Source: a virus (lineage: Duplodnaviria > Caudoviricetes). From it: DNA of 35,093 bases. How positions within the stretch are numbered: position 1 is the stretch's first letter; each line of letters starts with the position of its first letter. The translations under genes and the position numbers were made by a program. Location: the IMG/VR virus record IMGVR_UViG_3300030329_004417, positions 1 to 35,093 of that record; one strand, given 5' to 3'. Positions 3,545-33,699 of the stretch are shown here, piece after piece. The notes beneath the pieces are model-generated. The model did not search any database and was not told the DNA's origin. It worked only from the letters and a program-made list of their open reading frames with translations.

Positions 3545-5656
3545 CTACATTAGTCCCTCTTTCAACTTAAGGCCGCGTAGCCTAACAACTACGCGGCCTT
3601 TTCTTTTATTTTTAGCGGGATACCCGGCAGAAGTTAGTTTTTTTCCCCAGTAGACGTCTGTAAAAGGCTTTTGGTATCCACTAACACGTGACCATTCCGC
3701 AAAGTCCGCATAGAGTTCTGGAGAGGGAGAGCCTTCCTCAATATCAACGTTTTCTGTTCGGGTGACAATCCAGCGTCCAACCGGATCATTTTCAAGCATG
3801 TATTCGGCCACAGATTGATTGGACTGCTCGGGAGTAATGAAATTGCCCCTCTCGTAAAGAGTTCTAAGAGAATGAACCCATCTGTTGAGGATTCCAGCAC
3901 GTTCACTGTGAAGTTTGGCGTCGAGGTCGAGATCAGGTTTTTCTACTTTGTTTGGGCAATTGAGGATGATGATTCGTCTTCGCAAAGCATCGCTGTTATC
4001 ACTGGTAGCTGGCATGTCATTAACCAACTCAAGGAAACGGACCGATAATGTAACATTATTTTGGGTTTCACCATACAGACGCCGGATATCAATGGCGTCT
4101 CCACCTGTAATCTTTTTAAGGTAAGTGTCTGAAACGAGGTTAAGTCGAGATTGTTCGCCTGAGATATTAACAAGTTTTCCGACAAGTGAAGTTCTTTTGC
4201 GTTCGTTGTTAAGATCGGTGACTCCAACTGATCCGACACATTCTGGATTATGCATGCTGCGTAACACTCGGGAGACGGTACCTTTGCCATTACCTCCCGG
4301 ACCTCTGAGAAAGAGAAGCCTTTGGAAGGACATGTCGTCAACAAGGGTGTGAGCGCAGTATTCGTCCCAGAATGTAATAGCCTCTGTATCGCCATCGAAA
4401 GTCTCCTTTACGATTTTATCGTACAATGGACATTTTGCATTTTCGTCCCATTCTACATCGAGTTGATGAGTAAGCTCGTGACTAGAATCCCACTTAAGTA
4501 GGTCCCCAGAAACAACGTCGATAGTACCGTTAAGACAGCAAATACGACGCTTTTTAGGATCATCTTTCGCTGCTACGCCGGGGGTTGATCCGAATGATAT
4601 ATTTTCACGCATTGTATGTATAATAGAAACAGCATTGTCAACATCGCGTAATCTAAGAAATTCGTCAGCATCGTACATTCTCCTCTTGAGGTCAGGTATA
4701 TTAACTAAAGGCCAATGTCCGTCTCGGTATGTGCGCAGTTGGCCACGCACGCATGCTACGTTTTCTTGGCCTCCTAGATACTCGATTGCCCAATCGGCCA
4801 TAATTCGTTCTGCAGGGGGTTTCTTCTTCGACTTGGCATTGCCAGTCATTCCTTTTTCTCTAGCGGAATCTATCCATCCTTGGACGACTTGTTCCTCTTC
4901 GGGCCAGTTATATTCTTCACCAGTTCGTTCCACAGCCAAACGCTTAGCACGACTAACCCTACTATGAATATCGAGGTCGCGCCAATCGCGGGCCACCATG
5001 AACGCAACTGCGGAGACGCAGGTATCATGAGTATTCCCGCCCCCATCAACACCAGCCCAATGCATGGTATTGAGTGCCTCAAAATGTTCGTCTTTGTCGG
5101 TACATATCGCTCTAATTTCATCCACAGTGCCGAACGTAATGCTCGGAAGCGAGTCCGATTGAAGGATATCTTGGCCCACCCACTCGTAGGGTTGATCCGT
5201 ATCTGGATGGATAGAAGGCGGAATAACGGTTTGCGCTCCCAGTGCCAAAATTTCCACTGAGGGGGCGCTCTTAGGCTTTCCGTTTTCGTCGGTTCGTCGG
5301 ATTTTTGCATTGGTTAACTCCTTCGGTGCTACGCCAAAAATAGTTAATCCTTTCTTCCCTTTCTTGGCCGGTTGGTCCGACCCTATCGCGTGTTTCACTT
5401 TGTCGACGAGATCATCGTCGTCGATATCCACCGCGATGATCTGGACGCCCTCCGGGCCGTACCCCGTACCGAGGCATAGACCAATGTTGCACCCCGGATG
5501 ATTTGTATCCCACGCGTCGATTTCGTCTGCGGTCGGTATTTCTTGGCAATAACGTTGCCAATGATTGCTAATTGGTCGTTTTAGTCCCGGTTTAAGCGGA
5601 ATGAGACTGATGCCACGCTCCGCGTATAGAGTTGCTAACTCTTTGAACTCCCCCAT
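3545..5656 (-). CDS. Prim-Pol domain primase fused to D5/P4-family SF3 helicase
   Basis: N-terminal bifunctional primase/polymerase motifs (IPL..G.KRP, NIG, VDID, VIPPSIHP). D5_N-like CCLNG region, Walker A GPGGNGKG, LKKITGGD, RRRIII, and a C-terminal winged-helix-like region. Confidence 0.9.
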   Translation of the reverse strand: MGEFKELATLYAERGISLIPLKPGLKRPISNHWQRYCQEIPTADEIDAWDTNHPGCNIGLCLGTGYGPEGVQIIAVDIDDDDLVDKVKHAIGSDQPAKKGKKGLTIFGVAPKELTNAKIRRTDENGKPKSAPSVEILALGAQTVIPPSIHPDTDQPYEWVGQDILQSDSLPSITFGTVDEIRAICTDKDEHFEALNTMHWAGVDGGGNTHDTCVSAVAFMVARDWRDLDIHSRVSRAKRLAVERTGEEYNWPEEEQVVQGWIDSAREKGMTGNAKSKKKPPAERIMADWAIEYLGGQENVACVRGQLRTYRDGHWPLVNIPDLKRRMYDADEFLRLRDVDNAVSIIHTMRENISFGSTPGVAAKDDPKKRRICCLNGTIDVVSGDLLKWDSSHELTHQLDVEWDENAKCPLYDKIVKETFDGDTEAITFWDEYCAHTLVDDMSFQRLLFLRGPGGNGKGTVSRVLRSMHNPECVGSVGVTDLNNERKRTSLVGKLVNISGEQSRLNLVSDTYLKKITGGDAIDIRRLYGETQNNVTLSVRFLELVNDMPATSDNSDALRRRIIILNCPNKVEKPDLDLDAKLHSERAGILNRWVHSLRTLYERGNFITPEQSNQSVAEYMLENDPVGRWIVTRTENVDIEEGSPSPELYADFAEWSRVSGYQKPFTDVYWGKKLTSAGYPAKNKRKGRVVVRLRGLKLKEGLM

Positions 5657-5657
5657 T

Positions 5658-7028
5658 TTACCTCCTAAAATAGTCGATGATGGATTGCGCCACGTTACTC
5701 TTATGTTGCAGACATTTAATAATATCTATTTCTTCTTCTGTCCCAATGAGATCGATATAAAGGACGGAATCGTTTGTTTGTCCGTGTCTATGGATTCGAT
5801 CTTCACTCTGTATTCTGTCGTCAAGGCTATAATTGTTTTCATAGTAGACTGCCGTTGCGCATCGATTGTCCTCAGTACCAAGTAAAGTGTGCCCGTATTT
5901 AGCACTTCGCACCTGACAGATAATGATGTCAGCTTCGCCAGTGTTGAACTTGAACTTCTCAGCTTCGATGTCCTCATCTTGCATCCCTCCAGTGATGAAC
6001 GAGTAGGGAATTTTCTTTTTGTCCAGCGCGTCGAATATGTCCTGAATCGAGTGGCGGTAGTGGGCATTCACCACGATTGGAGTATCGCGCGTCTCATACA
6101 ATTCAAGCAGCAGGTCCAGTTTGGGGTTTTTACCAGGAATTTTAATTGGTTCCCCTTCTTCGGAATTTACCCACCCCGAAGAAATTTGCTGCAGTTTCAT
6201 GATTTTGGTGATTACCATGTGGACTTCGATTTCCTCCCCTTGGACGTACGCGATTAGATCGTCGCGCATAGTAGTATAGTGTGCGGTCTGGTCCCTCGTC
6301 AAGTCGAATCGTCTTTCCGTGTAGATTTTCGGCGGGAGATCGGTCCATTCGTCCTTCCTAGCGCGGAACCCCACCTGATCCACCATATTCGCAAGCTCAA
6401 GTTCTCTATCCTTCTTGACGCCAAGCACCTGCTTACCTTGCCACCCGCCCATACGGCAGAAGTAGTTGCGAAACGCGAAATAGTTGGACTTTCCATTGGC
6501 TGACAGGAATGTAAGTTGTGCCCATAAATCGTGGGGACCCTGAACTATAGGGGAACCAGAAAGACAACGACGATATTCCATCAGCGTCTTGCGCTGTAGC
6601 AACCATTTAGTCTTTTTGGCTTTATGATTCTTGATCATGATGCTTTCATCGAGCACCACCATACAACGATAACGATTGATCAACCTATCGACTTCCTCGC
6701 CGCCAGAATAAATCAACGTTTCGTAGTTTATAATAAAAATGTTGGGCATGTCAATAACCGACCCCAGTTCCGGCCAAACCCTGATGTTTGGGTCCATCTT
6801 TAACCATGTTTCTGCTTCTTTGGCCCAGTTTCGCTTTAAAGTGTTAGGGCAAATTACGATTAGAATGTCTACGTCGTGGTTGAGCCACAATTCTAAAAAA
6901 TCGGACAGAGCGACTGCTGTCTTACCGAGTCCCATTTCCATCCAGTAACCGAATTCCCCCCGTCCGCCACACTTATCCAACGCGCGGGATTGAACTTCAT
7001 ATGGGTTACCATTAAGATTCCAAGTCAT
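5658..7028 (-). CDS. SNF2-family (SF2) DNA helicase
   Basis: MEMGLGKT, IINYE, VVLDES, LSGSP and QSEDRIHRHGQ motifs. Confidence 0.9.
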   Translation of the reverse strand: MTWNLNGNPYEVQSRALDKCGGRGEFGYWMEMGLGKTAVALSDFLELWLNHDVDILIVICPNTLKRNWAKEAETWLKMDPNIRVWPELGSVIDMPNIFIINYETLIYSGGEEVDRLINRYRCMVVLDESIMIKNHKAKKTKWLLQRKTLMEYRRCLSGSPIVQGPHDLWAQLTFLSANGKSNYFAFRNYFCRMGGWQGKQVLGVKKDRELELANMVDQVGFRARKDEWTDLPPKIYTERRFDLTRDQTAHYTTMRDDLIAYVQGEEIEVHMVITKIMKLQQISSGWVNSEEGEPIKIPGKNPKLDLLLELYETRDTPIVVNAHYRHSIQDIFDALDKKKIPYSFITGGMQDEDIEAEKFKFNTGEADIIICQVRSAKYGHTLLGTEDNRCATAVYYENNYSLDDRIQSEDRIHRHGQTNDSVLYIDLIGTEEEIDIIKCLQHKSNVAQSIIDYFRR

Positions 7029-7572
7029 CGCTGTTCCTCATCACTTTGTCCGTACCGGCGAGTTGTTTACGCACGGTGTCGAGTATTTTTTGTTTCCTCT
7101 CGTCGTCTCCCTGCAAATTACCAACCGCGCCAATGAGACGTTCCCAGGAAGATTCTTGAAAATTGCCGACCCATGAATTCCCCATCCGTATTTCGTTGTT
7201 GAGGAAGAAGACTTCATCGATCAGGTCCGCGCATTTAACAACGTCTTTATGTTGGTCGCTAAACCTAGGTGCGATCGTTTTAAACGTACTGACCGCCAAA
7301 TTTACGTTCATTCCGTGGTACTTGGTGGGGTCCACTACTTCCCGCTTAAACGGGCCGGGTATGTCCCCGCTGAAAATTTCGTCCCGGTCGTGGTACAGGG
7401 CGACCAAAATACACTCAGCTCGGAATTCGGGCCGGTATCCCATCATTATACAGATTTGATCCGTGTAGATCGATACGAAATAGCTGTGCTCTGCTATGTT
7501 TTGAGTGTTGAGGGTCCGGGCGATGGACCAACGATTAACGAATGCCATGCGGCGATAAGCTTGTTCAAACAT
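7012..7572 (-). CDS. datZ: HD-domain dATP triphosphohydrolase (DatZ-like/YfbR family)
   Basis: RWSI...QNIAEHS...ALYHD.DE..SGDIPGPFK...KCADLID. The RW-x-I and GD.P.P features resemble DatZ, and the gene lies in the purZ cluster. Confidence 0.8.
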   Translation of the reverse strand: MFEQAYRRMAFVNRWSIARTLNTQNIAEHSYFVSIYTDQICIMMGYRPEFRAECILVALYHDRDEIFSGDIPGPFKREVVDPTKYHGMNVNLAVSTFKTIAPRFSDQHKDVVKCADLIDEVFFLNNEIRMGNSWVGNFQESSWERLIGAVGNLQGDDERKQKILDTVRKQLAGTDKVMRNSDDLES

Positions 7573-8076: not shown

Positions 8077-8296
8077 TCCATGCTATCATCATAGCAAAAT
8101 TCGCGACATCTGCCGCCTCGAATAAGACCTCAAACGGGTTTTCCCGCTCAATGGCCTCTTGCAATTCATCGACTTCTTCTCGCAGACGAATAAAGAGGGT
8201 ATCTAGATCGGTTTCCTCCCACCCACCTTTATGGTCGTTTCGACGAAGCTTAAGCTCCATCGCCTCTGCAAATACGTTTATTTCGTGTCGCGCCAT
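8039..8296 (-). CDS. MazG-like all-alpha dNTP pyrophosphohydrolase (MazZ/DUF550-like)
   Basis: LREEVDELQEA...FEAADVANF carries the ExxE...ExxD metal-binding motif; overlaps the purZ stop. Confidence 0.75.
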   Translation of the reverse strand: MARHEINVFAEAMELKLRRNDHKGGWEETDLDTLFIRLREEVDELQEAIERENPFEVLFEAADVANFAMMIAWNVGKELFNGRRT

Positions 8297-9303
8297 TTTT
8301 TAACGTCCTTTCTAGTGGGACCGTACCCTAAGTATACCTCATCAAAGCGACCCAAGTCCAGTGATCGTAAAAATCCCTGCTCCTGTGCTGTCGATTGAAA
8401 GTAGTTCATGAAGTTGACGAATAGATAGTTGGGTTGAATCTTCTTCACAGCCCGTTCGAATTGGTAATAAGAAAATGTCGCTATGCGCCGCACTTTCTGC
8501 GTTACGGTGGTCAATTCTTCTTCTTGCTGGATTTTGTCGAAATCGATCTCGATCGAATCCTCGAAGAAGGGGCCAGATTTACCTCCCACCCGAATTGGAT
8601 AGGTACGTATCACCATACAAACATCGCCCAGTGCGGAAGGATGCGCGCCGATATCGGACAACGCTTGTGCCGGTGTTACGTCCCGGCTCGTGCAATAAGG
8701 ATAGTGGCTAGAATTGAGACTCAATCCGAATCCTTGCGCTACTTCCATTAAAGCGGGCATTCGGTCCAAAGTTACGGACCAATCTACTTCATCGAATTTG
8801 GTGTCATAATTGGCGTGGGAAAACCCTATTTTTCCCCACTCCGCTAACAATTGTCTGTAGGGGAGTTCATCGTAACGACGCATAATCTTCCGGGTAAATG
8901 CGGCACCGGTTCCACTTGCCGTCGATCCACGTGATTTGGCTATGTCAGCCTCGGCGTCAATATCGGCCTGTGTAATCACGGCTATATAGGGGCTTATAAC
9001 TATAGTACCTATCCTGTTGGCGTGCTCCGCGATTTCATCTGCCAATTGCTTGGGATTAATAACTGATCCGGGTCCAATATAAACATCGTCTTTTGCGTAG
9101 CGGTGAATTGCCGATGTCGGCAGATGGTGGAGTATTACTTTCTTGTCGCTGAGATACGAAGTATGGCCAGAATTTGCTCCATTGGTCGAACAATGCAGGG
9201 CTTCGCCTATCTGCGGAGAAAAGTAGGAACTAACCAATCCCTTGCCACACGACCCAAACTGACCATCGATAATCAAATTGATCTTACCTCTTTTTCCGAA
9301 CAT
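8278..9303 (-). CDS. purZ: PurZ, N6-succino-2-amino-2'-deoxyadenylate synthase (adenylosuccinate synthetase paralogue)
   Basis: DGQFGSCGKG (Ser in place of the PurA catalytic Asp of GDEGKG), NSGHT, EVAQGFGL...YPYCTSRD, RTYPIRVG, TTVT..VRR and NFMNY. RBS AAGGGG before ATG 9303. Confidence 0.9.
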   Translation of the reverse strand: MFGKRGKINLIIDGQFGSCGKGLVSSYFSPQIGEALHCSTNGANSGHTSYLSDKKVILHHLPTSAIHRYAKDDVYIGPGSVINPKQLADEIAEHANRIGTIVISPYIAVITQADIDAEADIAKSRGSTASGTGAAFTRKIMRRYDELPYRQLLAEWGKIGFSHANYDTKFDEVDWSVTLDRMPALMEVAQGFGLSLNSSHYPYCTSRDVTPAQALSDIGAHPSALGDVCMVIRTYPIRVGGKSGPFFEDSIEIDFDKIQQEEELTTVTQKVRRIATFSYYQFERAVKKIQPNYLFVNFMNYFQSTAQEQGFLRSLDLGRFDEVYLGYGPTRKDVKKWRDTK

Positions 9304-9613
9304 TGACTTCCCCTTTGGTTGCAAATTCTTTAGCGTACTTGACGTAATTTATGATGTCGTCGTAATTATCTTCTACGACCCGACCAGTGGCGATTCGAGC
9401 GAACTTGAGCATCGCTTCTTCGAGACACAACATTTCCTTTGGGCCGGGTTTGCGATGGACGTTACTCCGAACACCGTCGCGAAGAGTGGCCCGCAGGGAC
9501 GCGGCAATACCAAAATTGACCCATCGATCGCCGTATTTATCGCCTCTATTTTCCGATATTGCATATCTGCTTAATTCGTCGTTATCCTGTAAGGATTTGA
9601 AGAATCGCTCCAT
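9284..9613 (-). CDS. DUF6378-like all-helical protein (putative nucleotide-metabolism associated)
   Basis: RGDKYGD...KFARIATG...DNYDDIINY pattern. Probable start ATG 9613 with purine-rich RBS; the ORF track extends to 9751. Confidence 0.55.
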   Translation of the reverse strand: MERFFKSLQDNDELSRYAISENRGDKYGDRWVNFGIAASLRATLRDGVRSNVHRKPGPKEMLCLEEAMLKFARIATGRVVEDNYDDIINYVKYAKEFATKGEVNVRKKR

Positions 9614-9980
9614 GTTGATGTTTCTCTCCCCGCCCACGTATATACGCAATTTGTCCGTCACGGGGGTGACTGCTATTCCAGTCGGTTGAGACGTAGATTG
9701 TGTCGGTTGATCCTTCGGTGACGCAGCAGCACCATCCTGCTTTTCCGCCATGTTTTTGCTCCTTTGCTATGAACCGCCGTTGGAGTTGTGAAAGTCCAAG
9801 GGCAATATTTGCCGACTTTCGAAACTTGAGTTCGATAAATACACTAGGGTAATCGGGATGCTTAACGTAGAGATCAGGAATCCCACCCCTAAAGCGATCA
9901 GAAATCTTAAAAACGTGACACCCTTGGTCTTGCATTGCAAGGCGCAACTGGGTTTGAAACTGTTTTTCATTCGTCGGCAC
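9582..9980 (-). CDS. VRR-NUC / PD-(D/E)xK nuclease (Holliday junction resolvase-like)
   Basis: NEKQFQ...GIPDL...FIELK...LSQLQRRF. GTG start at 9980 with GGAGG RBS. Confidence 0.8.
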   Translation of the reverse strand: MPTNEKQFQTQLRLAMQDQGCHVFKISDRFRGGIPDLYVKHPDYPSVFIELKFRKSANIALGLSQLQRRFIAKEQKHGGKAGWCCCVTEGSTDTIYVSTDWNSSHPRDGQIAYIRGRGEKHQHGAILQILTG

Positions 9981-11760
9981 CGAACGTAGCCTCCTTCCAA
10001 CTTGCACCCTCACCAATATCAACTGCCATCGGCACGGTGCCTACTTTCAAAGTTAAATCGATTACGTCACCGGGACCAAACGCCATCATCCGTTCTTCGA
10101 TTTTGGCTTTCGCCTCCTTGATTTCCGCAATCGGGATCGAAAAGTCTAAACTATCGTGAATTTGCAACAATGGGGTATACCCCATGTCGTCGCATTCTAC
10201 CATTTTTAATTTACACATGTCCGCGCACGTACCTTGTACGTAACGGGACGACGACCGATAGGTAAATCTCTTCTCTTTCCCTGGGAACCGTTGCTTTCGA
10301 CCAAGGATAGTTTTGGCGTACGGCACCGGGTGGCGCGATTCACAAATAGATTTGGCTTTGTCCAGGAACAGCTTAACCTCTGGGAACTGGTGAAAATACT
10401 GTCGTTTGTACAATTTGGCTTGTTTTTCCGTACACCCTAGAGACGCGGCCAATTTCGCCACACCAATCCAATTGATCAAGCCCATATTCATCCGCTTGGC
10501 AGTAGTGTCGCGATCGACATTCATCATTTGGGCTACTGTCCCGTGCATGTCAATAGGTGGATCGGACAAATACCCTCCGATGAGTTTTCGGGATTTAGTG
10601 TAATAAGAGAAAATTCGGTACTCTTGTTGGCTGTAGTCCATGGAGAGCCATCTTTCTCCTTCATCCGGGACGAACACGGACCGAAATAAGACAGCAAGCT
10701 CCTTATTGTGTTTAGGTACTTGCTGCATGTTAGGTTGGCTAGAAGATAGTCTTGCCAAGGAGCCTTTATCCTCAAAATTAAAAGCCTCTCCCCTGAGTTG
10801 GTTAAAGTTAGTGTGCACTCGCCCATTGTGGATATGTTTCTCAGCAAGCGGACCAAGGAAAGAGTTAACGAGGTTGGTGAACTTCCGGAGTGTGATAATA
10901 TCTCGGCCCTTCTCTCTTTCTTTGAGCCAATCTTCTGTAAACGATGGATTGCCCTTTGGCGTGAGATTCCATTCATCTTTACAATCTGCGAAATATTCTT
11001 GCATCTGGATGGAGCTTCGTGGATTAAAGCCATCGGGTAGCGACTTAGAAACCCGTTCAATCTCACTTTCGACATGTTGTCTAACTTGTCCCAGACGTTG
11101 TTCATCAACACGCACTCCTCGTCTTTCCATACGGAAAAGAGTTCGGAGTACTCGGCATTCGAGGTCGTGTACCGTACGTAGATCGTCTTCATCGATCAAT
11201 CTCTGCTGTTCTTCCCAAACTTGCCAAGTCGATGTACCGTCGCCCTTCGCGTACTCGTGCGCAAGGGGGTCTTGGGCATCAAGCTTCCAGTAATTGCCCA
11301 TTTGGCGTCGGTTAGCTTCACCACCGAATTCTTCTGCAAGATGTTGATAGAGGGCTTCACCCTTTTTGACCTGCACACCATGATACTTGCTCACTCCGTC
11401 TAGTGAAAAAGAGGGCATATACTCGTTAATAAGGCATGCGTTGACCATAGTACATTCCACTGGGCCTTTAAACTCAATGTTATGATTAGCACTAAAGTGG
11501 AGATCAAACTTAAGGTGGTGACCGACAATGCGAATATCGTCACGTGCCGCAATTTCGGTCTGAATCCACTTTTCGACCTGACCGGCATCACAGTTATCGC
11601 CTTGCCCATGCCTAACCGGGAAATAGAAAGTGTCGTCTTCTCGGGGGCCAAGGGTAATGACGTACCCGCAGACTTTTTTTGTTTTCCAATCCAGTCCAGT
11701 AGTTTCTGTGTCATAAACAACAGTTGAAACATCTTTAAGCCTTGGTGGATCGAATTGCAT
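9967..11760 (-). CDS. family A DNA polymerase with 3'-5' exonuclease (candidate DpoZ-type)
   Basis: Exonuclease motifs DTETTG, HHLKFD and YAKGD. Polymerase motifs RLSSSQPNMQQ, DYSQQEYR (A), AKRMNMG (B), VQGTCAD and IHDS (C). Confidence 0.92.
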   Translation of the reverse strand: MQFDPPRLKDVSTVVYDTETTGLDWKTKKVCGYVITLGPREDDTFYFPVRHGQGDNCDAGQVEKWIQTEIAARDDIRIVGHHLKFDLHFSANHNIEFKGPVECTMVNACLINEYMPSFSLDGVSKYHGVQVKKGEALYQHLAEEFGGEANRRQMGNYWKLDAQDPLAHEYAKGDGTSTWQVWEEQQRLIDEDDLRTVHDLECRVLRTLFRMERRGVRVDEQRLGQVRQHVESEIERVSKSLPDGFNPRSSIQMQEYFADCKDEWNLTPKGNPSFTEDWLKEREKGRDIITLRKFTNLVNSFLGPLAEKHIHNGRVHTNFNQLRGEAFNFEDKGSLARLSSSQPNMQQVPKHNKELAVLFRSVFVPDEGERWLSMDYSQQEYRIFSYYTKSRKLIGGYLSDPPIDMHGTVAQMMNVDRDTTAKRMNMGLINWIGVAKLAASLGCTEKQAKLYKRQYFHQFPEVKLFLDKAKSICESRHPVPYAKTILGRKQRFPGKEKRFTYRSSSRYVQGTCADMCKLKMVECDDMGYTPLLQIHDSLDFSIPIAEIKEAKAKIEERMMAFGPGDVIDLTLKVGTVPMAVDIGEGASWKEATFGADE

Positions 11761-11926
11761 CAATAAACTCCGCTTCTTCGTATTGACCTAAAGTCGTGAC
11801 CGACATCACGATTTCCCACATTCGGACGCAATAGGCGCGCCAAGAACGAGAGCGGGGGTCCATTTCTGATATGGGTCGCCCAATTACGACTTCGCCTTTT
11901 AGATGAGGATCGTTGCGCGGATACAT
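11735..11926 (-). CDS. hypothetical protein
   Basis: ATG coupled to the upstream stop (TGATG); overlaps the polymerase start. Confidence 0.5.
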   Translation of the reverse strand: MYPRNDPHLKGEVVIGRPISEMDPRSRSWRAYCVRMWEIVMSVTTLGQYEEAEFIDAIRSTKA

Positions 11927-12167: not shown

Positions 12168-12995
12168 CTACATGCGTTCGTCTTCTTCCGTGGGAACCGA
12201 GGATTCGGACTCCTGCATGCCTTCCTCGTCGCGAATCTGCATACCCAGATTCTTGAAGCTTTCGTAATACTCCCGCATGGAGAGGAACTCAGCTTCATCC
12301 TCAACGAAACCGACCCGCTTGAACTTATAGGACTTGAAGTCCTCGTTCCGATCGTTGGTTTCGTCCGAAGACGACATTTCGTAGACCAGCCCGTACGAGG
12401 GAGCGTTCGCCATTTTAAGCTTGGAGTACAACTCCTTGCCGATCTTTTCGCTCGATCGTTGACACGTTATCACGCAAGGCGACAACTCGGGATGATCGGG
12501 CAACCAGCACGCAAAGCAGTGCATCGCGGTTGCGGCGGGCGGCGAATCCTCTTCATCGGGATCGTAGCTACCCCAGTCAGCCAGTCCGCTTTCGCGCACG
12601 GTATCTGCCGTTTTCCATACGCCTGTCTTTTTCTGGCCTTTGTAGAGATTGACTTCAAACTCGCGATTAGCCGGGTTCCAATGGACACCGTCGTCACTGC
12701 GGGCCAAAATACCACCGCCATCATGGCGCGGGTTCCACAGCAAGTACCGCTTCGTGTAGTAGAGCGGAATAATGCGAACCGTGTCGCCTAGGGACAAATC
12801 GCCCAACAGGTGGTAGAAGTCGCCTGCTTTTTCGTCACCCGATTGCACGAGTTCCGAAATGCCTTGCAGCAGGATTACGCGGGGAATTATCAGGTCTTCT
12901 GACGTACCTGCTTCCGTGCCCTCGCCACGGTAGTCATTCATGAATGTGGGCAGCGCGCCCGATTCTTGCTTTGCAACAGCTTTACTTTTAGCCAT
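12168..12995 (-). CDS. putative ssDNA-binding/recombination-associated protein
   Basis: DLIIPRVILLQ..S...GDFY pattern, aromatic-rich core and acidic C-terminal tail. Lies upstream of the polymerase and is followed by a terminator. Confidence 0.55.
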   Translation of the reverse strand: MAKSKAVAKQESGALPTFMNDYRGEGTEAGTSEDLIIPRVILLQGISELVQSGDEKAGDFYHLLGDLSLGDTVRIIPLYYTKRYLLWNPRHDGGGILARSDDGVHWNPANREFEVNLYKGQKKTGVWKTADTVRESGLADWGSYDPDEEDSPPAATAMHCFACWLPDHPELSPCVITCQRSSEKIGKELYSKLKMANAPSYGLVYEMSSSDETNDRNEDFKSYKFKRVGFVEDEAEFLSMREYYESFKNLGMQIRDEEGMQESESSVPTEEDERM

Positions 12996-12996
12996 A

Positions 12997-13503
12997 CTAT
13001 TTCACTTTCGTTACACTTGTGTTTTCACGATACGTTACGTTGAACACCTCTTCGGGGAGTTCTTCTCCCTCTTCTATTTGAGATTTGGCCCATGCGGACA
13101 AAGTGGAGGCGTTCACGGTCGGAGTGACCAATTCACCATGTCCGTTTATTTCGAGCCAACCCATCCCAGATTCTCTGTCTTTCATTGAAGCGAACACTCG
13201 TTGCGATACGGTCAAACGGAACGGACCGTTCTCCGTTTCGATCGTCATTGTCTTGACGCCTTCTTCATCGAAGCGTTCGGGGATTTGGAATTCTTTGATT
13301 TGGGCGCGACACTTGCTAATTTCTTTGGTTAGCTTGTCAAGTTCGGTCGCTACTTGATGGAATTCAACATAATCTTGCAACAGAGCGGGCAGGGATTGTT
13401 TTTTTGATTCGGTATATACCCAATCCTTAAGATGAACAAGATCAGAAGTAAGCTTTTCAGCTGTATCCCGAAGTTTGCGAATCGATAAATCTACTACAGT
13501 CAT
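12997..13503 (-). CDS. conserved phage replication-module protein (coiled coil plus WL..NGHG.LV..TVN..TL)
   Basis: AAAGGAG RBS; recognisable phage hypothetical-protein pattern. Confidence 0.6.
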   Translation of the reverse strand: MTVVDLSIRKLRDTAEKLTSDLVHLKDWVYTESKKQSLPALLQDYVEFHQVATELDKLTKEISKCRAQIKEFQIPERFDEEGVKTMTIETENGPFRLTVSQRVFASMKDRESGMGWLEINGHGELVTPTVNASTLSAWAKSQIEEGEELPEEVFNVTYRENTSVTKVK

Positions 13504-13520
13504 TTACTCTCTCCTTTGGT

Positions 13521-13835
13521 TTATAGCGTCACCGTTACTGGGAAGTATCCGCGCTCTCGCTTGTCCCATTTCAGGCAGCGAAAGTGTGTTACCCCTTGGG
13601 CGCAGATTGCTGCTGATGCGGCAACCATCAATATTGGGTCGCCAGATAAAAGCAGACTGTCGCGCGTAGGGTCGAACGTCTTGAGCTTCCGCTCCATAAT
13701 CATTCGAACACGAATCATGTCGTAATTGTCGGGGAATTGTTCTTTGGCGACTAGCGGAACCAATGTCCCGTATGTGCGGGCGGCGCTAAAATCGCGATGA
13801 TCTTCGGTTTGGGTGATGAAAACTCGTTTAACCAT
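13521..13835 (-). CDS. small alpha/beta hypothetical protein
   Basis: First gene after the promoter at 13.95 kb; VFITQ...DFSAA..YG...DSLLLSGDP...LKWD. Confidence 0.6.
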   Translation of the reverse strand: MVKRVFITQTEDHRDFSAARTYGTLVPLVAKEQFPDNYDMIRVRMIMERKLKTFDPTRDSLLLSGDPILMVAASAAICAQGVTHFRCLKWDKRERGYFPVTVTL

Positions 13836-13938: not shown

Positions 13939-13974
13939 ATCCTAGCACAGGGGGTGGTGCGGGTCAAGAGGAAG
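13939..13974 (-). promoter_or_regulatory. sigma70-type promoter for the replication operon
   Basis: TTGACC (13967-13962), 17-bp spacer, TAGGAT (13944-13939) with extended TG. Confidence 0.7.
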
Positions 13975-14353
13975 TTAATGTCCCGCTAAAAGGACCAGAA
14001 GGACCAACAGGACTATCGATTGCACTACCCACTCGTTTTTCCTTAGCCAAGTGGTCCGTGAGTTGTCGTCCAATACGCCTCGATTCAAGTTTCGCATCTT
14101 CTGTCCTTATTTGTGGTTGAATGACTGGTGCGACGTCGGAATCCAGGATCGCTTGCGCTATTGCTTTCAGCGCAGCGTTGCCCCTATTTGCTTCGTTCAT
14201 CATACCCTCGATCGTGGTTGCTTCCACTTCATAAGTGGTGTAATGATAACCGCAGCTGTGACACATTCTGCGACGCCGTATCGCTGATTCGGTCGGCCTG
14301 GAATCCTTAACACGGGATTGAGGCGATCCGCAGTTCGGACAATATATACTCAT
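13964..14353 (-). CDS. NrdR-like zinc-ribbon protein (no ATP cone)
   Basis: CPNCG...SRVKDSR....[18 protein letters not shown] matches the NrdR N-terminal Zn ribbon. Confidence 0.8.
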
Positions 14354-27863: not shown

Positions 27864-29551
27864 TGGCGGATAAATTATCCACTTTTCAGGAACCTAGCGG
27901 TCGTCGCGGTCGCGTAATTCAACCGTTTAATCCGGGGAATGTAGCCATTCGTCCGGATTTCAGTTCGTTGTCGCAGAGTAATAATACTCTGGTTAATAGT
28001 ATTGTTGGATTTGTGAAGCGGAAAGAAGCCGAAGGCGAGCGATTTGAAAAAGTTCGTTTCGGTAATATGGGTGCACAGGCTGCGGCCAACGCCGATTTAC
28101 AACAAAAAGACCTCCAAAGCTTGTTTTCTCAGGATGGCGGTTTTCGTGCCCACGCATTTAATCAGTCCCTTATCGCGGGTCTTTCCGCCCGATTTAAGGC
28201 TCAAGTATCGACTGATATTGATAAATTTAAAAATAATCCCAATCTTCGTGCTAATCCGGATGCGATGGGACGAGCTATTTCCGATTATCGGGGTAAATTG
28301 CTGGAGCAAGCCCCTGCTCAGTTGCATCCCGATATCATCCCGTTTTTGGATTTACATACGGGGACGGCTCAAAATTCGAGCATAGTGGGACAGCAGAAGG
28401 CTGTTGTCGATGCTAATAAGGCGCAGTTCGAACAATATAAAAAGTCTCAATTGAATACTATTCTAAATCTTCAAGAGGAAGGTCAGTTCGATGCGGCGGG
28501 TAAATTGGAGAAGGAATACTTCAATGAACTCGATAAGCAGGGCCCTCTTGAATTTGGAGGTACAGGCGTATACACTGCTAAAGGTCTTGGCGACCAAAAA
28601 TTGGCGTTCCGACAGCAAATGCGAATTTCTGCTCTTCGTGGTGAGTTCCGCCGTATTCCCGGTTTTTCCGGTAAGATGGCATTCCTAAATCGTTTGTCCA
28701 AGCCGGGCAATAAGGAATTGGACGATCTGTTCACTCCGAAAGAACAGGCGTCTATTCGATCCGAATTGCGTACTATCGTAACTCAAGAAAATGCTGCGTT
28801 TAATTCTTCTATTGCCCGTAGAAATTTCTTAATGAAGGAAAAAGAACGTACTGCTATTAAAGCGTATATTGGCGTAAAATCCGATCCGGATTCTTCGGAT
28901 GAACAATTGAATGCTTCTTTACAGAATGTGTATGCCAATGCGTTCGGTCTGGATACCATAAAATTTGTTGATAAAGAAGCAACAGATATTAACGATGAAG
29001 CGGCGGATCAGGAGTATACAACCCGGTTCTTTGGTCCCGACGAAAAAGCTGGGAATGATCTGACAATCAACGATGTTGTTGAAGATTTTCGTTTGGGCCG
29101 AATTAAGGCCCCCACTGCTCGGCGGTGGATCGACAAGCTTGAAAACGCTAAAGATTTCCCGTTCCTCAAGTCCAGCGGGTGGAAGCAAGCCATTAAGTTT
29201 CGGAATAATGACTTTCCGGTAAACAAAAATCTCATGGGCGGATTTTCTAGCGCGCAATCGCGTAAGAATGCTGCTGTCAGGACGGAGATCGAAGAACAGT
29301 TGTTTAACGTTATGAAGGCCAATCCCGATAAAGACCCGGTTGCTGCGTATCAGTCGATCAAAAATCAACGGAAAGCTGCTGGGAGTCAGAAGACTAGTCT
29401 TGTGGATAAACATTTTGGCACTGGTGATGCAGTAAATCAAAATTGGGTGCAAAACCACAAGTCTTATCGGGAAGCAAAAAGGCTCGGAATTGTCAGTCCA
29501 GATTTGCAGTCTAAGTATGACGCATATTGGAAAGAAAAGGCGGGATTGTAA
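27863..29551 (+). CDS. internal virion (ejection) protein
   Basis: Helical 562 aa protein in the gp15-like position; TAATG-coupled. Confidence 0.65.
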   Translation: MADKLSTFQEPSGRRGRVIQPFNPGNVAIRPDFSSLSQSNNTLVNSIVGFVKRKEAEGERFEKVRFGNMGAQAAANADLQQKDLQSLFSQDGGFRAHAFNQSLIAGLSARFKAQVSTDIDKFKNNPNLRANPDAMGRAISDYRGKLLEQAPAQLHPDIIPFLDLHTGTAQNSSIVGQQKAVVDANKAQFEQYKKSQLNTILNLQEEGQFDAAGKLEKEYFNELDKQGPLEFGGTGVYTAKGLGDQKLAFRQQMRISALRGEFRRIPGFSGKMAFLNRLSKPGNKELDDLFTPKEQASIRSELRTIVTQENAAFNSSIARRNFLMKEKERTAIKAYIGVKSDPDSSDEQLNASLQNVYANAFGLDTIKFVDKEATDINDEAADQEYTTRFFGPDEKAGNDLTINDVVEDFRLGRIKAPTARRWIDKLENAKDFPFLKSSGWKQAIKFRNNDFPVNKNLMGGFSSAQSRKNAAVRTEIEEQLFNVMKANPDKDPVAAYQSIKNQRKAAGSQKTSLVDKHFGTGDAVNQNWVQNHKSYREAKRLGIVSPDLQSKYDAYWKEKAGL

Positions 29552-32500
29552 TGCCGGACGTAAACGCATATAGTCAGTATCGGGAAGCAGTAGAAGAGGA
29601 GTTTAATCTCCCTTCCACGCTGGACGAGGTACGTGAGTCTTTAGGTATGCCACCCGTCGCCGAGGCTGAGGCGAGGGAGGGTGCCTCTCCGGACGGTACC
29701 ACCATAGCAGCCCCGACGCCTGACACCCCCTCGACGGGCGACGGCGGCGGACGGACGGGCGTATCCGACGAGGAGGCTGGTCGGGTGATCTCGGAGCTTA
29801 ACGATCCCCGTCGAACTATAGTGGACGATATCAAAGACTCGGCAGGTGCGAATTCTGATCAAATTTTTCCTTCCGGAAATAAACTTCGGCATGATTTGAT
29901 TCAAGCTGGCGTGCCGGAAGCTTTGCTTAAATCGAATTTGGGTGATATTGGCTTAGCTGATTTAATCCCAGGTGTTGAAGCCGGGTTGTCATTTAATGAT
30001 TTGCTAGAAGCGCAAGAAAGACGCCATAGGGGGGAGGATTCTTCGATGGTGGAGGAAGGGGGTCTTGCCATAGCAACGGTACTTGGCACGATCCCCTTCC
30101 TTGGCGCTCCTGCGTCTAAAGTCGTAAAAGCAACTGCTAAAGCAGCGGGTAAAGGGCTAAAAGCAGTTCGAGACGTATTAGGGTTTAAATCCAATGCCGA
30201 CAAGCTTCGCGATGCGATGGACACCGCTATCAAAAACGAAAACGGCAACATCATTGGTTCTCAAGCCCATATTGCTACTCTTAATGACGATAATCTCGAA
30301 GTAGTGGGTCGATATCAGGGCGATTCTTCGGACATAAATAGCGCCTTGCGGAACGGTGATCCCACGTTCGATAAGTTTGCTAAAAGTTTAGATACTATTA
30401 TTGCTGAACGAGCGATGAATCAAAATGTAGTAGTTTATCGCGGGATTGATCAAAGTGTAGTGGGGAAAACTCTTCCGAAACCGGGCGATACTATTATCGA
30501 TCCTGCGTTTGTGTCCACTTCTTACAGTGTTCGGATATCCGACCAATTCACCCAACATGTTGGCGATAAGCGAGTAATTCTTAAGATCAAAGTCCCGGAA
30601 GGGCAAAATGCTCTTGATTTGTCCGCTACTAGAAATGTTCGCGATATTTCTGGAGTTCGCATTGAGGATGAATTCGAAGTACTTCTTCCCCGCAATACTC
30701 CGATCAAAATTGAAGATGTCCATGAATTTGAAAATCAGATACTTATCAAGGGTGCAGTCGGCGATGCGGCGGGTAAACCGGACTCCGATTTCAGGATTTT
30801 CGGCCATCAAACGCTGTCAGGTGGTAAAGATCGTGGTCCATTGGTACAGGAAGCACGAGGAGAGGAAGCTACCAAGCGGACTTTCCTTGGCGACGCTCAC
30901 CAGTTATTTAAGGATCATATAGTCACCCCTGCCGCTATGACGGCCAAAATGGACAAGGGCGACAAAGTTCAAGTTTATGGTGTTGCTCTTGGAGAAGATT
31001 CTCTGGACGAAGGTATTTTGGCGGCGGAGAAAGCAGGAGGTACTACTCACGTTGAGTTTATGTTGGGGGACCGGGAATTTGTTCTTCCGATTGATCATGT
31101 TATTAAAAATTTCGATTCCATTAAGGGACTGGAAGCTTCGCAAAAAGAATTCGGCCAATTGCAAGGATTTTTGGGGTGGGCCGGTAGAGACGCGGGTAAA
31201 TATCTTCCCGACAAGACGCTGAATATCAGTCTTCTTCGTATGAACACGACTGATGATATCAAGGCGGCAGCGGCGTCTCTTGGTGATATTACTCGGGCAG
31301 GCGGTAAGAAATTTACTGAGTCGATGGATGAAACAATTTCTCGTTTGTCCGAAGTAACCGGCACTGACATAGCTGTTTTGAAAAAGCGGGCAGAACAGGC
31401 TAACCGTTTGGCGGTTGAAATCAATGATACTACCAACCTTATGACTGCAGCAGCCTACCAACTGCGGTCTATGGCCCGTATATATGACCCTATGACGGCA
31501 ACTGCGTCTGACAAGCTTAAGATCATGCTAGAAGTCCAGGCGCTATCGGAAGTGTTTAAGTATGGCGAAATGATTTTGTCGGCACCGGGTCGAGCGTTGA
31601 ATATACAAAAGGTAGGTGGCGCAATAGATTTTGATAGTGTGGCTCGTGTTAATGAAATGATTGGTTCGTTTGGCGGCGAAAAAGCTATTGACGATCTGAT
31701 GCGAGCGTTAGGTACGGCGGAAAACCCTGTTGAGATTGCAAAAACGGTTCGACCCTCTGTGCTTTCTCGGGCAGGCGATGCGGTCATGGAATTCTGGGTT
31801 AATGGGATTCTGTCCGGCGTCAAAACTCTTGCTGTTAATACGGTGGGCAATACTCTATTCATGGGATGGCAAGTACCGGAGCGCGCAATTCAAGGGATGG
31901 TGGGTGCTATTCGTGCCGGTGGTCGGAAAGACGTAGATCGTGTGTTTGTTGGTGAATCCATTGCCATGATGTATGGTACCGTTAAGGGGCTGAAAGACGG
32001 TTTGCGTTTGGCAGGTAAAGCATTTCGTACGGGTGACCCGCAATTCGACAGTGTTGCAAAAATTGAAATGCCGGAATTGAAGCGGGCCATATCGTCTGAT
32101 CAACTTGGCTTGACTGGGATTCCGGGTATTGCGGCTGATGTATTGGGCGCTGTAATTCGTACCCCCACCCGCGTGATTATGACGCAGGACGAATTATTTA
32201 AGGGTATCGCTTCATCCATGCAGAATAATGCCCTTGCTTATCGGACTGTTGTGCAGAGTGGTGGTTCACTTACCAATCCTAAGCAAGTAATCGACAAAAT
32301 GAAGTCCGTACTGGATGATGTTGATGCGTACCCCGCTATTCAGAAGGATTCTCAAGCTTTTGCCCAGTATGTCACATTCCAAAAGGAATTAGGGAATATT
32401 GGGCAGGATATTCAGAAGAACGTGGGCCGATTCCGGTTGTTGGGAATCCCTGTACTGCGTTTTGTTCTCCCCTTTATTCGTACGCCCACGAACATCTTTA

Positions 32501-33699
32501 AAGCGGGTGTCGTGGAGCGGAATCCTGCGGTGGCTATAATTTCGCCTTCCTTTTATAAGGAGTTGGAAGCGGGCGGTGCTCGCGCCGATGCGGCAATGGG
32601 CAAATTGGCTATGGGGTCCGCTGTTGGCGCGGTTGCGGCATCGATGGCGATGGAGGGTCAAATTACTGGCTCCGGTCCGATCGACCAAAAACAGCGTCAG
32701 TTCATGCGCAGCGAGTTTGGATGGCGACCGTACTCGATCCGGGTTCAGAAGGGTCTCAATGCGGATGGGTCTCCGAAATATGAATACGTATCCTACTCTC
32801 GGTTGGAGCCGTTGGCCTTCCTTATTGGCGCGGTTGCCGATACGGTCGATATCCTGAAATATCAGGATCAGGTGGACGTAGATCAATCTGAAATCGATGA
32901 AGCGCAGGATTTAGCAGTTGCCATCGTCAGTGCTATCGCACAGAATACGATGTCGAAAACGTTTATGACAGGCTTCACTGATTTCATTCACGTTATGGAC
33001 GATCCCAAACGCTACATGGACCGGTGGGTACAGCGCTATTCAAGTTCATTCGTACCAAATATTATACGGGACGTCAAGACTTCCATGGACGACGATACGA
33101 TTCGGCAAGTCGAAACTTCGCTTGAAGCGATTAAGTCCAAAGTGCCGGGTATGGGTAAGGATTTACCCCCAGTGACGAATTATTGGGGCGATATTCGTAC
33201 GCGGGATAAAGGTTGGGTGATGGGGGCGAGTTCGTACTTCTCCCCCATGGCGACGTCCGAGGAATCTCACTCCCCTGCGGATAAAGAAATTAAGCGCTTG
33301 GCTATCGATGGGATTAAAGGTCCCGATGGTGAGCGCCTTATTTTCGATGACGCGATGCCCACGAAACCGAAACGCGATCTTACGGTAGATGGTGTTAACA
33401 TTCGATTGACACCGTGGGAGCATTATGATCTAATAACAATGAGTTCACGCGATCTCCAGATTGACTATTGGAATATCGGCAAAAAGATGAACCAAAAAGA
33501 GGCGTTGGACCACATGGTTACTCGACAAGACGCCTATATCAACGGGTCTGCGGTAGAACAGGCTGGGATGATAAATTTCGTAATGAGAGAATACAAACAA
33601 GCGGCGCGAGATATTTTGATCGAACGAGAAGAAATTCAAAATCGCCTTATAGAGCGAATGATTTTCTTGGAACGGGCTAATCAAGCTGGAGAACAGTAA
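29551..33699 (+). CDS. large internal virion/polyvalent protein with ADP-ribosyltransferase domain
   Basis: gp16-like position and size (ATG 29551, TAATG overlap). ART motifs YRG, FVSTS and EFEVLLPR. C-terminal PFIRTP.NI...GW.PYS..YSRLEP region typical of podovirus ejection/large polyvalent proteins. Confidence 0.85.
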   Translation: MPDVNAYSQYREAVEEEFNLPSTLDEVRESLGMPPVAEAEAREGASPDGTTIAAPTPDTPSTGDGGGRTGVSDEEAGRVISELNDPRRTIVDDIKDSAGANSDQIFPSGNKLRHDLIQAGVPEALLKSNLGDIGLADLIPGVEAGLSFNDLLEAQERRHRGEDSSMVEEGGLAIATVLGTIPFLGAPASKVVKATAKAAGKGLKAVRDVLGFKSNADKLRDAMDTAIKNENGNIIGSQAHIATLNDDNLEVVGRYQGDSSDINSALRNGDPTFDKFAKSLDTIIAERAMNQNVVVYRGIDQSVVGKTLPKPGDTIIDPAFVSTSYSVRISDQFTQHVGDKRVILKIKVPEGQNALDLSATRNVRDISGVRIEDEFEVLLPRNTPIKIEDVHEFENQILIKGAVGDAAGKPDSDFRIFGHQTLSGGKDRGPLVQEARGEEATKRTFLGDAHQLFKDHIVTPAAMTAKMDKGDKVQVYGVALGEDSLDEGILAAEKAGGTTHVEFMLGDREFVLPIDHVIKNFDSIKGLEASQKEFGQLQGFLGWAGRDAGKYLPDKTLNISLLRMNTTDDIKAAAASLGDITRAGGKKFTESMDETISRLSEVTGTDIAVLKKRAEQANRLAVEINDTTNLMTAAAYQLRSMARIYDPMTATASDKLKIMLEVQALSEVFKYGEMILSAPGRALNIQKVGGAIDFDSVARVNEMIGSFGGEKAIDDLMRALGTAENPVEIAKTVRPSVLSRAGDAVMEFWVNGILSGVKTLAVNTVGNTLFMGWQVPERAIQGMVGAIRAGGRKDVDRVFVGESIAMMYGTVKGLKDGLRLAGKAFRTGDPQFDSVAKIEMPELKRAISSDQLGLTGIPGIAADVLGAVIRTPTRVIMTQDELFKGIASSMQNNALAYRTVVQSGGSLTNPKQVIDKMKSVLDDVDAYPAIQKDSQAFAQYVTFQKELGNIGQDIQKNVGRFRLLGIPVLRFVLPFIRTPTNIFKAGVVERNPAVAIISPSFYKELEAGGARADAAMGKLAMGSAVGAVAASMAMEGQITGSGPIDQKQRQFMRSEFGWRPYSIRVQKGLNADGSPKYEYVSYSRLEPLAFLIGAVADTVDILKYQDQVDVDQSEIDEAQDLAVAIVSAIAQNTMSKTFMTGFTDFIHVMDDPKRYMDRWVQRYSSSFVPNIIRDVKTSMDDDTIRQVETSLEAIKSKVPGMGKDLPPVTNYWGDIRTRDKGWVMGASSYFSPMATSEESHSPADKEIKRLAIDGIKGPDGERLIFDDAMPTKPKRDLTVDGVNIRLTPWEHYDLITMSSRDLQIDYWNIGKKMNQKEALDHMVTRQDAYINGSAVEQAGMINFVMREYKQAARDILIEREEIQNRLIERMIFLERANQAGEQ

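What the first reader, a model, noticed from the sequence alone, without database searches (positions are those of the whole stretch)
9967..10780. Family A polymerase with several non-canonical substitutions at base-pair-sensing positions (candidate new DpoZ lineage)
Aligned by eye to Klenow numbering. Motif B reads KRMNMGLINWIG where KxxNFGxxYG is usual (F762 to M, the near-invariant Y766 to N, G767 to W). The N845 minor-groove position before Q849 is Ser (SSSRYVQGTCAD). TGRLSS is LARLSS, and motif C is HDS rather than HDE. The catalytic Asp, Arg and Lys residues are intact. These positions line the nascent pair and minor groove, where the 2-amino group of Z projects. The inference is adaptation to Z:T pairs or discrimination against dATP.
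Basis: partly seen in the sequence, partly recalled or inferred. Interest (0 to 1): 0.7.

Follow-up and report, generated by a model that had tools for sequence, protein, structure and literature searches.

The report
Z-phage polymerase missing its conserved tyrosine
A marine phage that likely replaces adenine with 2-aminoadenine (Z) in its DNA has a DNA polymerase from a branch separate from the two studied Z-preferring polymerase groups, and it lacks a normally conserved active-site tyrosine, a loss seen here only in phages with the Z genes and predicted to make the enzyme shun ordinary adenine.

Summary
The substitutions are real, but none is unique to this enzyme. It is the intact family A polymerase of a phage carrying purZ, a MazG-like gene and datZ. 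It belongs to a well-supported, mostly uncultured clade that includes Ochrobactrum phage vB_OspP_OH and is separate from phiVC8- and Wayne-type DpoZ.

Non-Glu 883 and non-Gly 767 each occur in 9 of 10 purZ-less clade members, so they are not Z-linked. Loss of the aromatic ring at 766 (Asn/Thr/Ser) occurs in 41 of 52 purZ-bearing and 0 of 10 purZ-less members, always with Met/Gln762. The purZ-less members form only two lineages, so this is not significant, and 11 purZ-bearing members keep Tyr.

Klenow Y766A binds an A:T-pair nucleotide about 100-fold more weakly but handles G:C normally (PMC3715850). The likely mechanism is therefore a penalty on two-hydrogen-bond pairs, not room for the 2-amino group. 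It is untested. The scan earlier noted a related Z module on other DNA (e1-6291793). Verdict: new variant of a known kind, with natural controls for an open mechanistic question.

The parts
9967..11763 (-). Family A DNA polymerase with 3'-5' exonuclease (598 aa from TTG, 597 from ATG at 11760)
   Evidence: Pfam PF00476 and PF01612; NCBIfam phage_DpoZ_1 326 bits, under the 500 cut-off; best PDB sequence hit 7PBK, phiVC8 DpoZ
10471..10473 (-). Asn431 at the Klenow Tyr766 position, end of helix O: the key departure
   Evidence: alignment, codon, purZ association
10483..10485 (-). Met427 at the Phe762 position; Met762 never occurs with Tyr766 among 119 homologues
10468..10470 (-). Trp432 at the Gly767 position; not Z-linked
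   Evidence: non-Gly in 9 of 10 purZ-less and 4 of 52 purZ-bearing clade members
10246..10248 (-). Ser506 at the Asn845 position; weakly Z-associated
   Evidence: 18 of 52 vs 0 of 10; Ala at this site in purZ-less L097, L220, L224 of the phiVC8-like clade
10150..10158 (-). Motif C His536-Asp537-Ser538; catalytic Asp intact, Ser not Z-linked
   Evidence: non-Glu in 48 of 52 vs 9 of 10; Ser also in phiVC8
10750..10755 (-). Ala337-Arg338 at Gly667-Arg668, after a lengthened, low-confidence palm loop
8278..9324 (-). purZ (likely start ATG at 9303), with Ser at the phiVC8 S14 site and N294/F295/N297/Y298
   Evidence: NF038379 234.6 bits, under the 300 cut-off; residues
8039..8296 (-). MazG-like nucleotide pyrophosphohydrolase, likely MazZ-2 role
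   Evidence: PF01503 weak hit; BLAST match to the gene after purZ in phiVC8 and in phage OH
7012..7572 (-). datZ-like HD dATP triphosphohydrolase with W20 and I22 of S-2L DatZ
   Evidence: PF12917, phrog_7076, alignment
9582..10022 (-). Nuclease-like gene directly after polA
   Evidence: phrog_93
9284..9751 (-). DUF6378-like gene between the nuclease and purZ, as in phage OH
5658..7028 (-). SNF2-type helicase closing the Z-cluster slot
3545..5656 (-). Prim-pol/D5-like primase-helicase
12168..13835 (-). Pam3 gp34-, gp33- and gp32-like genes upstream of polA; the gp34-like gene recurs in most clade loci that reach upstream

Best explanation
This is the intact family A polymerase of a phage with purZ, MazG-like and datZ genes, from a clade separate from both described DpoZ groups, and its Asn at the Tyr766 site (with Met at 762) likely makes it close poorly on two-hydrogen-bond T:dATP pairs while closing normally on three-hydrogen-bond T:dZTP pairs. 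Shown: sequence, fold, gene context, clade and which substitutions occur with purZ. Inferred from known pathways: PurZ supplies dZTP precursor and DatZ removes dATP, so the genome carries Z (about 0.9). Inferred by analogy with Klenow Y766A: the tyrosine ring props up weak A:T pairs during fingers closing, and losing it costs little once all pairs have three hydrogen bonds and adds a second filter against leftover dATP. The loss may be selected or merely tolerated. It is optional, since purZ-bearing relatives with Tyr766 exist. The 883, 767 and 667 changes are lineage variation.
For: (1) Z cluster with diagnostic residues and the same gene order as phage OH. (2) Non-aromatic 766 in 41 of 52 purZ-bearing vs 0 of 10 purZ-less clade rows. 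It appears in none of the 45 of 132 representatives scored purZ-less (one later rescored purZ-bearing), and 74 of 74 more distant loci without purZ in the held flank have Tyr. (3) Three different small polar residues are used (Asn, Thr, Ser). A 9-row purZ-less Tyr766 group (SH-aLRT 99) is nested among purZ-bearing Thr/Ser766 groups, and three of its records are complete and lack purZ. (4) The relative closest by identity, L170 (48-50%), has no purZ or datZ between polA and helicase and is canonical at all six sites. (5) L097 scores 761 bits on the DpoZ model, is a complete genome without purZ or datZ, and has Tyr where its purZ-bearing kin have Phe. (6) Klenow Y766A Kd2 is 79 uM for A-dTTP (wild type 0.83) and 42 uM for T-dATP, but 0.11 uM for G-dCTP (wild type 0.20) (PMC3715850 Table 1). 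(7) Across 5 independent tree pairs, 'not Tyr' went with purZ in 3.2 on average and never against.
Against: (1) The purZ-less members of the clade form only two lineages. The sign test on independent pairs is not significant: median p 0.25 for 'not Tyr' and 1 for 'non-aromatic'. (2) 11 of 52 purZ-bearing members keep Tyr766, including some of the nearest (L008, L009), so the change is not required. (3) phiVC8 and Wayne DpoZ are Z-selective with Phe766, which behaves like wild type in Klenow, so selectivity can arise elsewhere. Phe766 also occurs in purZ-less complete genomes L091, L100 and L112, and in L220 and L224 (flank only). (4) The Klenow study tested templates A, G and T but not C, and Ala rather than Asn; Y766A is a mutator. 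(5) Absence of purZ in L170, L206, L209 and L215 rests on flanks only, and one flank-negative locus (L201) proved to carry purZ elsewhere in the genome. (6) S-2L reaches full substitution with a non-selective polymerase (PMC10201439). (7) Z has not been measured in any member.
Confidence: 0.45

Rival explanations
1. The polymerase is indifferent to A versus Z; the substitutions are lineage drift, and Z incorporation depends wholly on the DatZ/MazG/PurZ nucleotide pool, as in S-2L.
For: 11 of 52 purZ-bearing members keep Tyr766; 883 and 767 vary regardless of purZ; the tree test is not significant; S-2L precedent; the enzyme is under the DpoZ model cut-off and scores lower than purZ-less L170 and L042 (326 vs 414 and 338 bits).
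Against: No purZ-less row with non-aromatic 766 among those examined; Tyr in the nested purZ-less group and in L097; the Klenow mutant has a strong base-pair-specific effect.
Confidence: 0.3
2. The enzyme prefers Z, but through pol-to-exo backtracking or a distributed network as proposed for phiVC8 DpoZ, shared by Tyr766 and non-Tyr766 members alike; the 766 change is secondary.
For: The clade may be sister to the phiVC8-type (SH-aLRT 84); residues matching phiVC8 R161/M165 are present (R152, M155); phiVC8 is selective with Phe766.
Against: The same Arg/Met are in purZ-less L170 and L210; phiVC8 insertions 2 and 3 are missing; exo-dead phiVC8 DpoZ keeps its A-vs-Z ratio.
Confidence: 0.17
3. 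The smaller residues at 766 and 845 make steric room for the 2-amino group of Z in the minor groove.
For: 766 forms part of the nascent-pair pocket (PMC3715850); Ser845 occurs only with purZ inside the clade.
Against: G already presents a 2-amino group there (established chemistry); PCR DNA reaches 98% dZ; 34 of 52 purZ-bearing members keep Asn845 and 11 keep Tyr766.
Confidence: 0.08

Closest known systems
Ochrobactrum phage vB_OspP_OH DNA polymerase I (YP_010665247; Wolominvirus)
   Same: Best cultured hit (34.7%, 310 bits); same clade; same order polA-nuclease-DUF6378-purZ-MazG-datZ-helicase; Ala667, Met762, Ser845, Ser883 and non-aromatic 766.
   Different: Ser-Met at 766-767 rather than Asn-Trp. 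In the passages I read (PMC7139368) it is described as ordinary nucleotide salvage, with no test for Z or polymerase selectivity.
phiVC8-type DpoZ (cluster 18; PDB 7PBK; NF038380)
   Same: Fold, exonuclease, purZ-mazZ-datZ context, departures at 762, 766, 845 and 883, palm-loop insertion 1 region, helix E2 Arg/Met.
   Different: About 31% identity; 326 of 500 bits; Asn instead of Phe at 766, Met instead of Leu at 762, Ser instead of Gly at 845; no helix-O loop (insertion 2) or fingertip insertion 3; separate clade.
Wayne-type DpoZ (cluster 19; NF038381)
   Same: Family A polymerase beside a purZ gene; non-Tyr 766.
   Different: 20 bits against a 350 cut-off; long branch far from the clade; Phe766; PurZ0/dUTPase-type helpers rather than datZ.
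phiJL001-like PolA (cluster 11), e.g. phiJL001, PaMx11, HTVC023P
   Same: 28-30% identity; same broad superfamily branch; no Arg at 841.
   Different: No purZ in the regions fetched; all three keep Tyr766, Gly767, Asn845 and Glu883; separate clade.
Klenow fragment Y766A mutant (PMC3715850)
   Same: Loss of the 766 ring; a model for what the change may do.
   Different: Laboratory Ala mutant in a Phe762/Asn845 background, tested with A, G and T templates and no Z nucleotide.

Membership tests
Family A DNA polymerase (Klenow type, exo+) | Motifs A, B, C catalytic residues and Exo I-III acidic residues | tested here: met
Family A DNA polymerase (Klenow type, exo+) | Klenow fold | tested here: met
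   model pLDDT 95; Z 33-35 to PolA structures
phiVC8-type DpoZ | NF038380 score of at least 500 bits | tested here: not met
   326.2 bits; PMBT28 control 943
phiVC8-type DpoZ | Leu762, Phe766, Gly845 signature (L455, F459, G548) | tested here: not met
   Met, Asn, Ser
phiVC8-type DpoZ | Three insertions (palm loop, helix O loop, fingertip) | tested here: not met
   palm loop present and longer; helix O has one extra residue only; fingertip insertion absent
phiVC8-type DpoZ | Falls inside the phiVC8 clade | tested here: not met
   separate clades at SH-aLRT 100 and 99; sister relation 84, unresolved
phiVC8-type DpoZ | purZ-mazZ-datZ cluster in the genome | tested here: met
Wayne-type DpoZ | NF038381 score of at least 350 bits and placement with Wayne | tested here: not met
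   20.3 bits; tree
DpoZ as a function | Prefers dZTP over dATP opposite template T | not testable with these tools
   needs enzyme assay
Z-genome phage | PurZ with Ser at the PurA Asp13 site and ATP-type NFxN residues | tested here: met
   S14, R230, I234, T262, T263, N294, F295, N297, Y298; 234.6 bits is under the NF038379 cut-off, as are relatives
Z-genome phage | DatZ with W20 and I22 | tested here: met
   alignment to S-2L DatZ; residue roles from 10.1101/2025.10.22.683976
Z-genome phage | Z measured in virion DNA | not testable with these tools
   uncultured; indirect restriction-site test is weak

The most novel reading that the evidence does not exclude
A third lineage of Z-selective polymerases exists that rejects adenine by one simple active-site change, dropping the helix-O aromatic ring (Tyr766 to Asn, Thr or Ser). 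The change arose more than once in Z phages and the tyrosine is present wherever purZ was lost, giving the first residue-level, transplantable determinant of Z-over-A selectivity.
Probability: 0.3. Interest if true: 0.8.

Novelty: new variant of a known kind. Interest (0 to 1): 0.52.

Why it matters
The structural study of phiVC8 DpoZ could not assign Z-over-A selectivity to any residue (PMC8599892). This clade supplies natural matched sets at 38-50% identity: purZ-bearing enzymes with Asn, Thr, Ser or Tyr at 766, purZ-less relatives with Tyr, and one cultured member. Published Klenow data predict the direction of the effect. A positive result would explain how a polymerase can count hydrogen bonds and offer a route to polymerases for Z-DNA. 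A negative result would show that a residue called universally conserved is dispensable in Z phages. The clade also widens the known Z-phage range: 52 distinct purZ-bearing members were found with capped scans.

Tried and rejected
1. Treating all six substitutions as one Z signature: rejected for 883 and 767 (9 of 10 purZ-less rows each) and 667 (4 of 52).
2. Trp767 as a stand-in for the lost tyrosine: 7 of 8 Trp767 homologues keep Tyr766, and 17 of 18 Asn766 homologues have Gly767.
3. Phe766 as a DpoZ marker: found in purZ-less complete genomes.
4. Scoring purZ absence from 10-kb flanks: this failed for L201, whose complete record carries purZ and datZ far from polA. L201 was rescored purZ-bearing and its sister L031 (65% complete) was set aside as unknown.
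5. Naive Fisher tests (p 3e-6 for 766) are not used, because rows are related; independent pairs give no significance.
6. Restriction-site avoidance as evidence for Z. Four-base palindromes show no group difference (p 0.64-1.0). G/C-only six-base palindromes are depleted in the window (22 observed, 74 expected; A-containing 462 of 506) and in purZ-bearing members (0.34-0.51). But purZ-less members (0.57) and the marine outgroup (0.48) are also low, and four A-containing sites are nearly absent in the window too. Weak at best.
7. Single-sequence locus searches found no close relatives; alignments were needed. The genome-contig scan gave four phage-like contigs in MAGs (L250-L253) and otherwise distant, mostly acidobacterial PolA, so no host was inferred.
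8. No RNA holder listed.
9. Rows dropped before the counts. One search kept 203 polymerases (at least 140 bits, covering the motifs) and collapsed them at 85% identity to 132, of which 24 had too little flank to score. One search used 91 rows: clade rows of at least 300 bits with a purZ call, L215, seven later loci, and 25 chosen phiVC8-like and outgroup rows. One duplicate was removed, leaving 63 clade rows (52 purZ-bearing, 10 purZ-less, 1 unknown).

Full report
WHAT IS THERE. The window is a 35,093-base virus record with podovirus-type structural genes (portal PF12236, capsid PF19821, scaffold PF05396). Its DNA is held by marine metagenome runs. On the minus strand lie Pam3 gp32/33/34-like genes, polA (9967-11763), a nuclease, a DUF6378-like gene, purZ (8278-9324), a MazG-like gene, a hypothetical gene, a datZ-like HD gene (7012-7572), an SNF2 helicase and a prim-pol/primase. 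PurZ has Ser at the phiVC8 S14 site and the N294/F295/N297/Y298 residues. DatZ has W20 and I22 of S-2L DatZ. A Z genome is inferred from these genes; it is not measured.

OBSERVATION. All six substitutions are confirmed by alignment to Klenow: A337=G667, M427=F762, N431=Y766, W432=G767, S506=N845, S538=E883. Catalytic and exonuclease residues are intact. The R754 equivalent, R418, is one residue further from the motif B Lys. The model is confident and Klenow-like. Contigs from four runs not marked as the source agree with the window across the parts of polA that they cover. None of the changes is private: among the 119 best homologues (39-47% identical over the polymerase domain) Met762 is in 50, non-Tyr 766 in 68, Trp767 in 8, Ser845 in 63, Ala667 in 13 and Ser883 in 52, and P0035 shares five of the six.

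FAMILY. The best solved-structure hit is phiVC8 DpoZ, but the enzyme scores 326 of 500 bits on the phiVC8-type model and 20 of 350 on the Wayne-type model. It lacks phiVC8 insertions 2 and 3. Trees place it in a clade with SH-aLRT 100, separate from the phiVC8-like clade (98-99) and the phiJL001-like clade (100) (trait columns were left out). Whether it is sister to the phiVC8 type is open (84). The only cultured member found is Ochrobactrum phage vB_OspP_OH, with the same gene order. In the supplement of the 2023 PolA classification its polymerase is at row 2132, outside the phiVC8-like list at rows 47-89 and far below the Wayne heading at row 90; I did not read the rows between.

Loci were gathered by capped scans, scored for purZ in the flanks and, where held, on whole records. 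Of 63 clade rows, 52 carry purZ, 10 do not and 1 is unknown. Counts for purZ-bearing against purZ-less rows are:
- 766 non-aromatic: 41/52 vs 0/10
- 762 Met or Gln: 41/52 vs 0/10 (the same rows)
- 845 not Asn: 18/52 vs 0/10
- 883 not Glu: 48/52 vs 9/10
- 767 not Gly: 4/52 vs 9/10
- 667 not Gly: 4/52 vs 0/10

Three contrasts stand out. A nine-row purZ-less group with Tyr766 is nested among Thr/Ser766 purZ-bearing groups, and three of its records are complete. L170, the relative closest by identity, has no purZ or datZ between polA and helicase and is canonical at all six sites; only 14 of its 17 kb were seen. L097, a complete purZ-less genome inside the phiVC8-like clade, has Tyr where its kin have Phe.

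Against this, the purZ-less clade rows are only two lineages, and five independent pairs cannot reach significance (median p 0.25 to 1). Eleven purZ-bearing rows keep Tyr766, and one flank-negative locus carried purZ elsewhere. Phe766 occurs in purZ-less complete genomes and in L220 and L224 (flank only).

MECHANISM. In Klenow, Y766 stacks on the terminal pair, then helps E710 shape the nascent-pair pocket and positions F762 (PMC3715850). Its Table 1 shows Y766A with Kd2 79 uM for A-dTTP (wild type 0.83) and 42 uM for T-dATP, but 0.11 uM for G-dCTP (wild type 0.20); Y766F is near wild type (1.9). Removing the ring thus penalises the two-hydrogen-bond pairs tested and spares the three-hydrogen-bond pair. 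In a Z genome every pair has three hydrogen bonds, so the ring would be dispensable, and its loss would disfavour residual dATP. This step is inference: template C and Z nucleotides were not tested there, Asn is not Ala, and selection cannot be told from relaxed constraint. It fits the suggestion in PMC8599892 that DpoZ senses pair stability rather than the 2-amino group. Steric room for the 2-amino group is unlikely to be the reason, since G carries the same group and PCR DNA reaches 98% dZ. I put Z preference of this enzyme at about 0.6 and the 766/762 change as its main cause at about 0.3-0.45.

LITERATURE SEEN. PMC8599892: parts 2-4 of 6 of the text and one supplement search; it lists L455, F459, G548 and S583 and finds no single determinant. 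PMC10201439: passages and supplement searches. PMC12884076: abstract, section 25, passages and a supplement search that held little text; it reports two DpoZ groups, and its tree figure, not held, may include phage OH. 10.1101/2025.10.22.683976: passages only; it reports divergent DpoZ homologues whose sequences are in a supplementary figure I could not see. PMC3715850: passages, legends and Table 1. PMC7139368, PMC12944874, PMC13369328, PMC4882331, PMC6302109 and PMC8775771: passages. The 2021 Science papers on DpoZ and PurZ were not read. Seven searches and these passages showed no report of a non-aromatic 766 in Z-phage polymerases or of the link to the Klenow mutant; the library lacks most subscription papers.

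VERDICT. The enzyme is one member of a third, mostly uncultured clade of purZ-associated PolA; it is not a member of either described DpoZ family, and it may work like a DpoZ. The value lies in a ready set of natural controls and a specific, cheap prediction for an unresolved question. New variant of a known kind; interest 0.52.

Noticed in passing
L097:750-2585 (G011, 37,168 bases, complete with terminal repeats): Polymerase passes the phiVC8-type DpoZ model (761 of 500 bits) and has the helix-O insertion, yet the genome has no purZ or datZ and position 766 is Tyr: a likely revertant and a false positive for NF038380.
   Followed up: yes
L089, L091, L100, L101, L112: Phe at position 766 in purZ-less genomes (three at least 99% complete), although Phe766 is described as the one change shared only by the two DpoZ groups.
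   Followed up: partly
L012, L020, L028, L036, L038 and relatives: A 23-row purZ-bearing subclade has Gln at position 762 with Thr766; the passages I read name only Phe, Tyr and Leu as 762 types.
   Followed up: partly
L326/L332 (G012, 91,316 bases, complete): purZ and datZ lie tens of kilobases from polA, unlike the rest of the clade; flank-only scoring misses such cases.
   Followed up: yes
L025, L027-L030, L032, L038, L046, L217: PurZ variants with Asp at the phiVC8 N297 site and a changed N294 (15 of 94 aligned rows have Asp), which may mean a different phosphate donor.
   Followed up: no
L038, L046, L049: A 12-16 residue insertion just before the R754 equivalent in purZ-bearing Gln762/Thr766 polymerases, near but distinct from the phiVC8 helix-O loop.
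   Followed up: no
window 29527-33699 (+): A 1390-aa likely virion ejection protein with an ADP-ribosyltransferase domain at residues 251-402 (PF03496, E 5e-14), recalling T4 Alt (recalled comparison).
   Followed up: no
whole window: Four G/C-only six-base palindromes are absent (CCCGGG, CCGCGG, CGGCCG, GCCGGC; 8-10 expected each), as are AGATCT, CTCGAG and GAGCTC; a possible clue to host restriction enzymes.
   Followed up: partly
L170:4710-5171: The purZ-less closest relative keeps a dATP/dGTP diphosphohydrolase-domain gene (PF18909) in the slot where the Z cluster usually lies.
   Followed up: partly
window 13964-14353 (-): Small protein with an NrdR-like zinc ribbon (PF22811) upstream of the replication module.
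   Followed up: no
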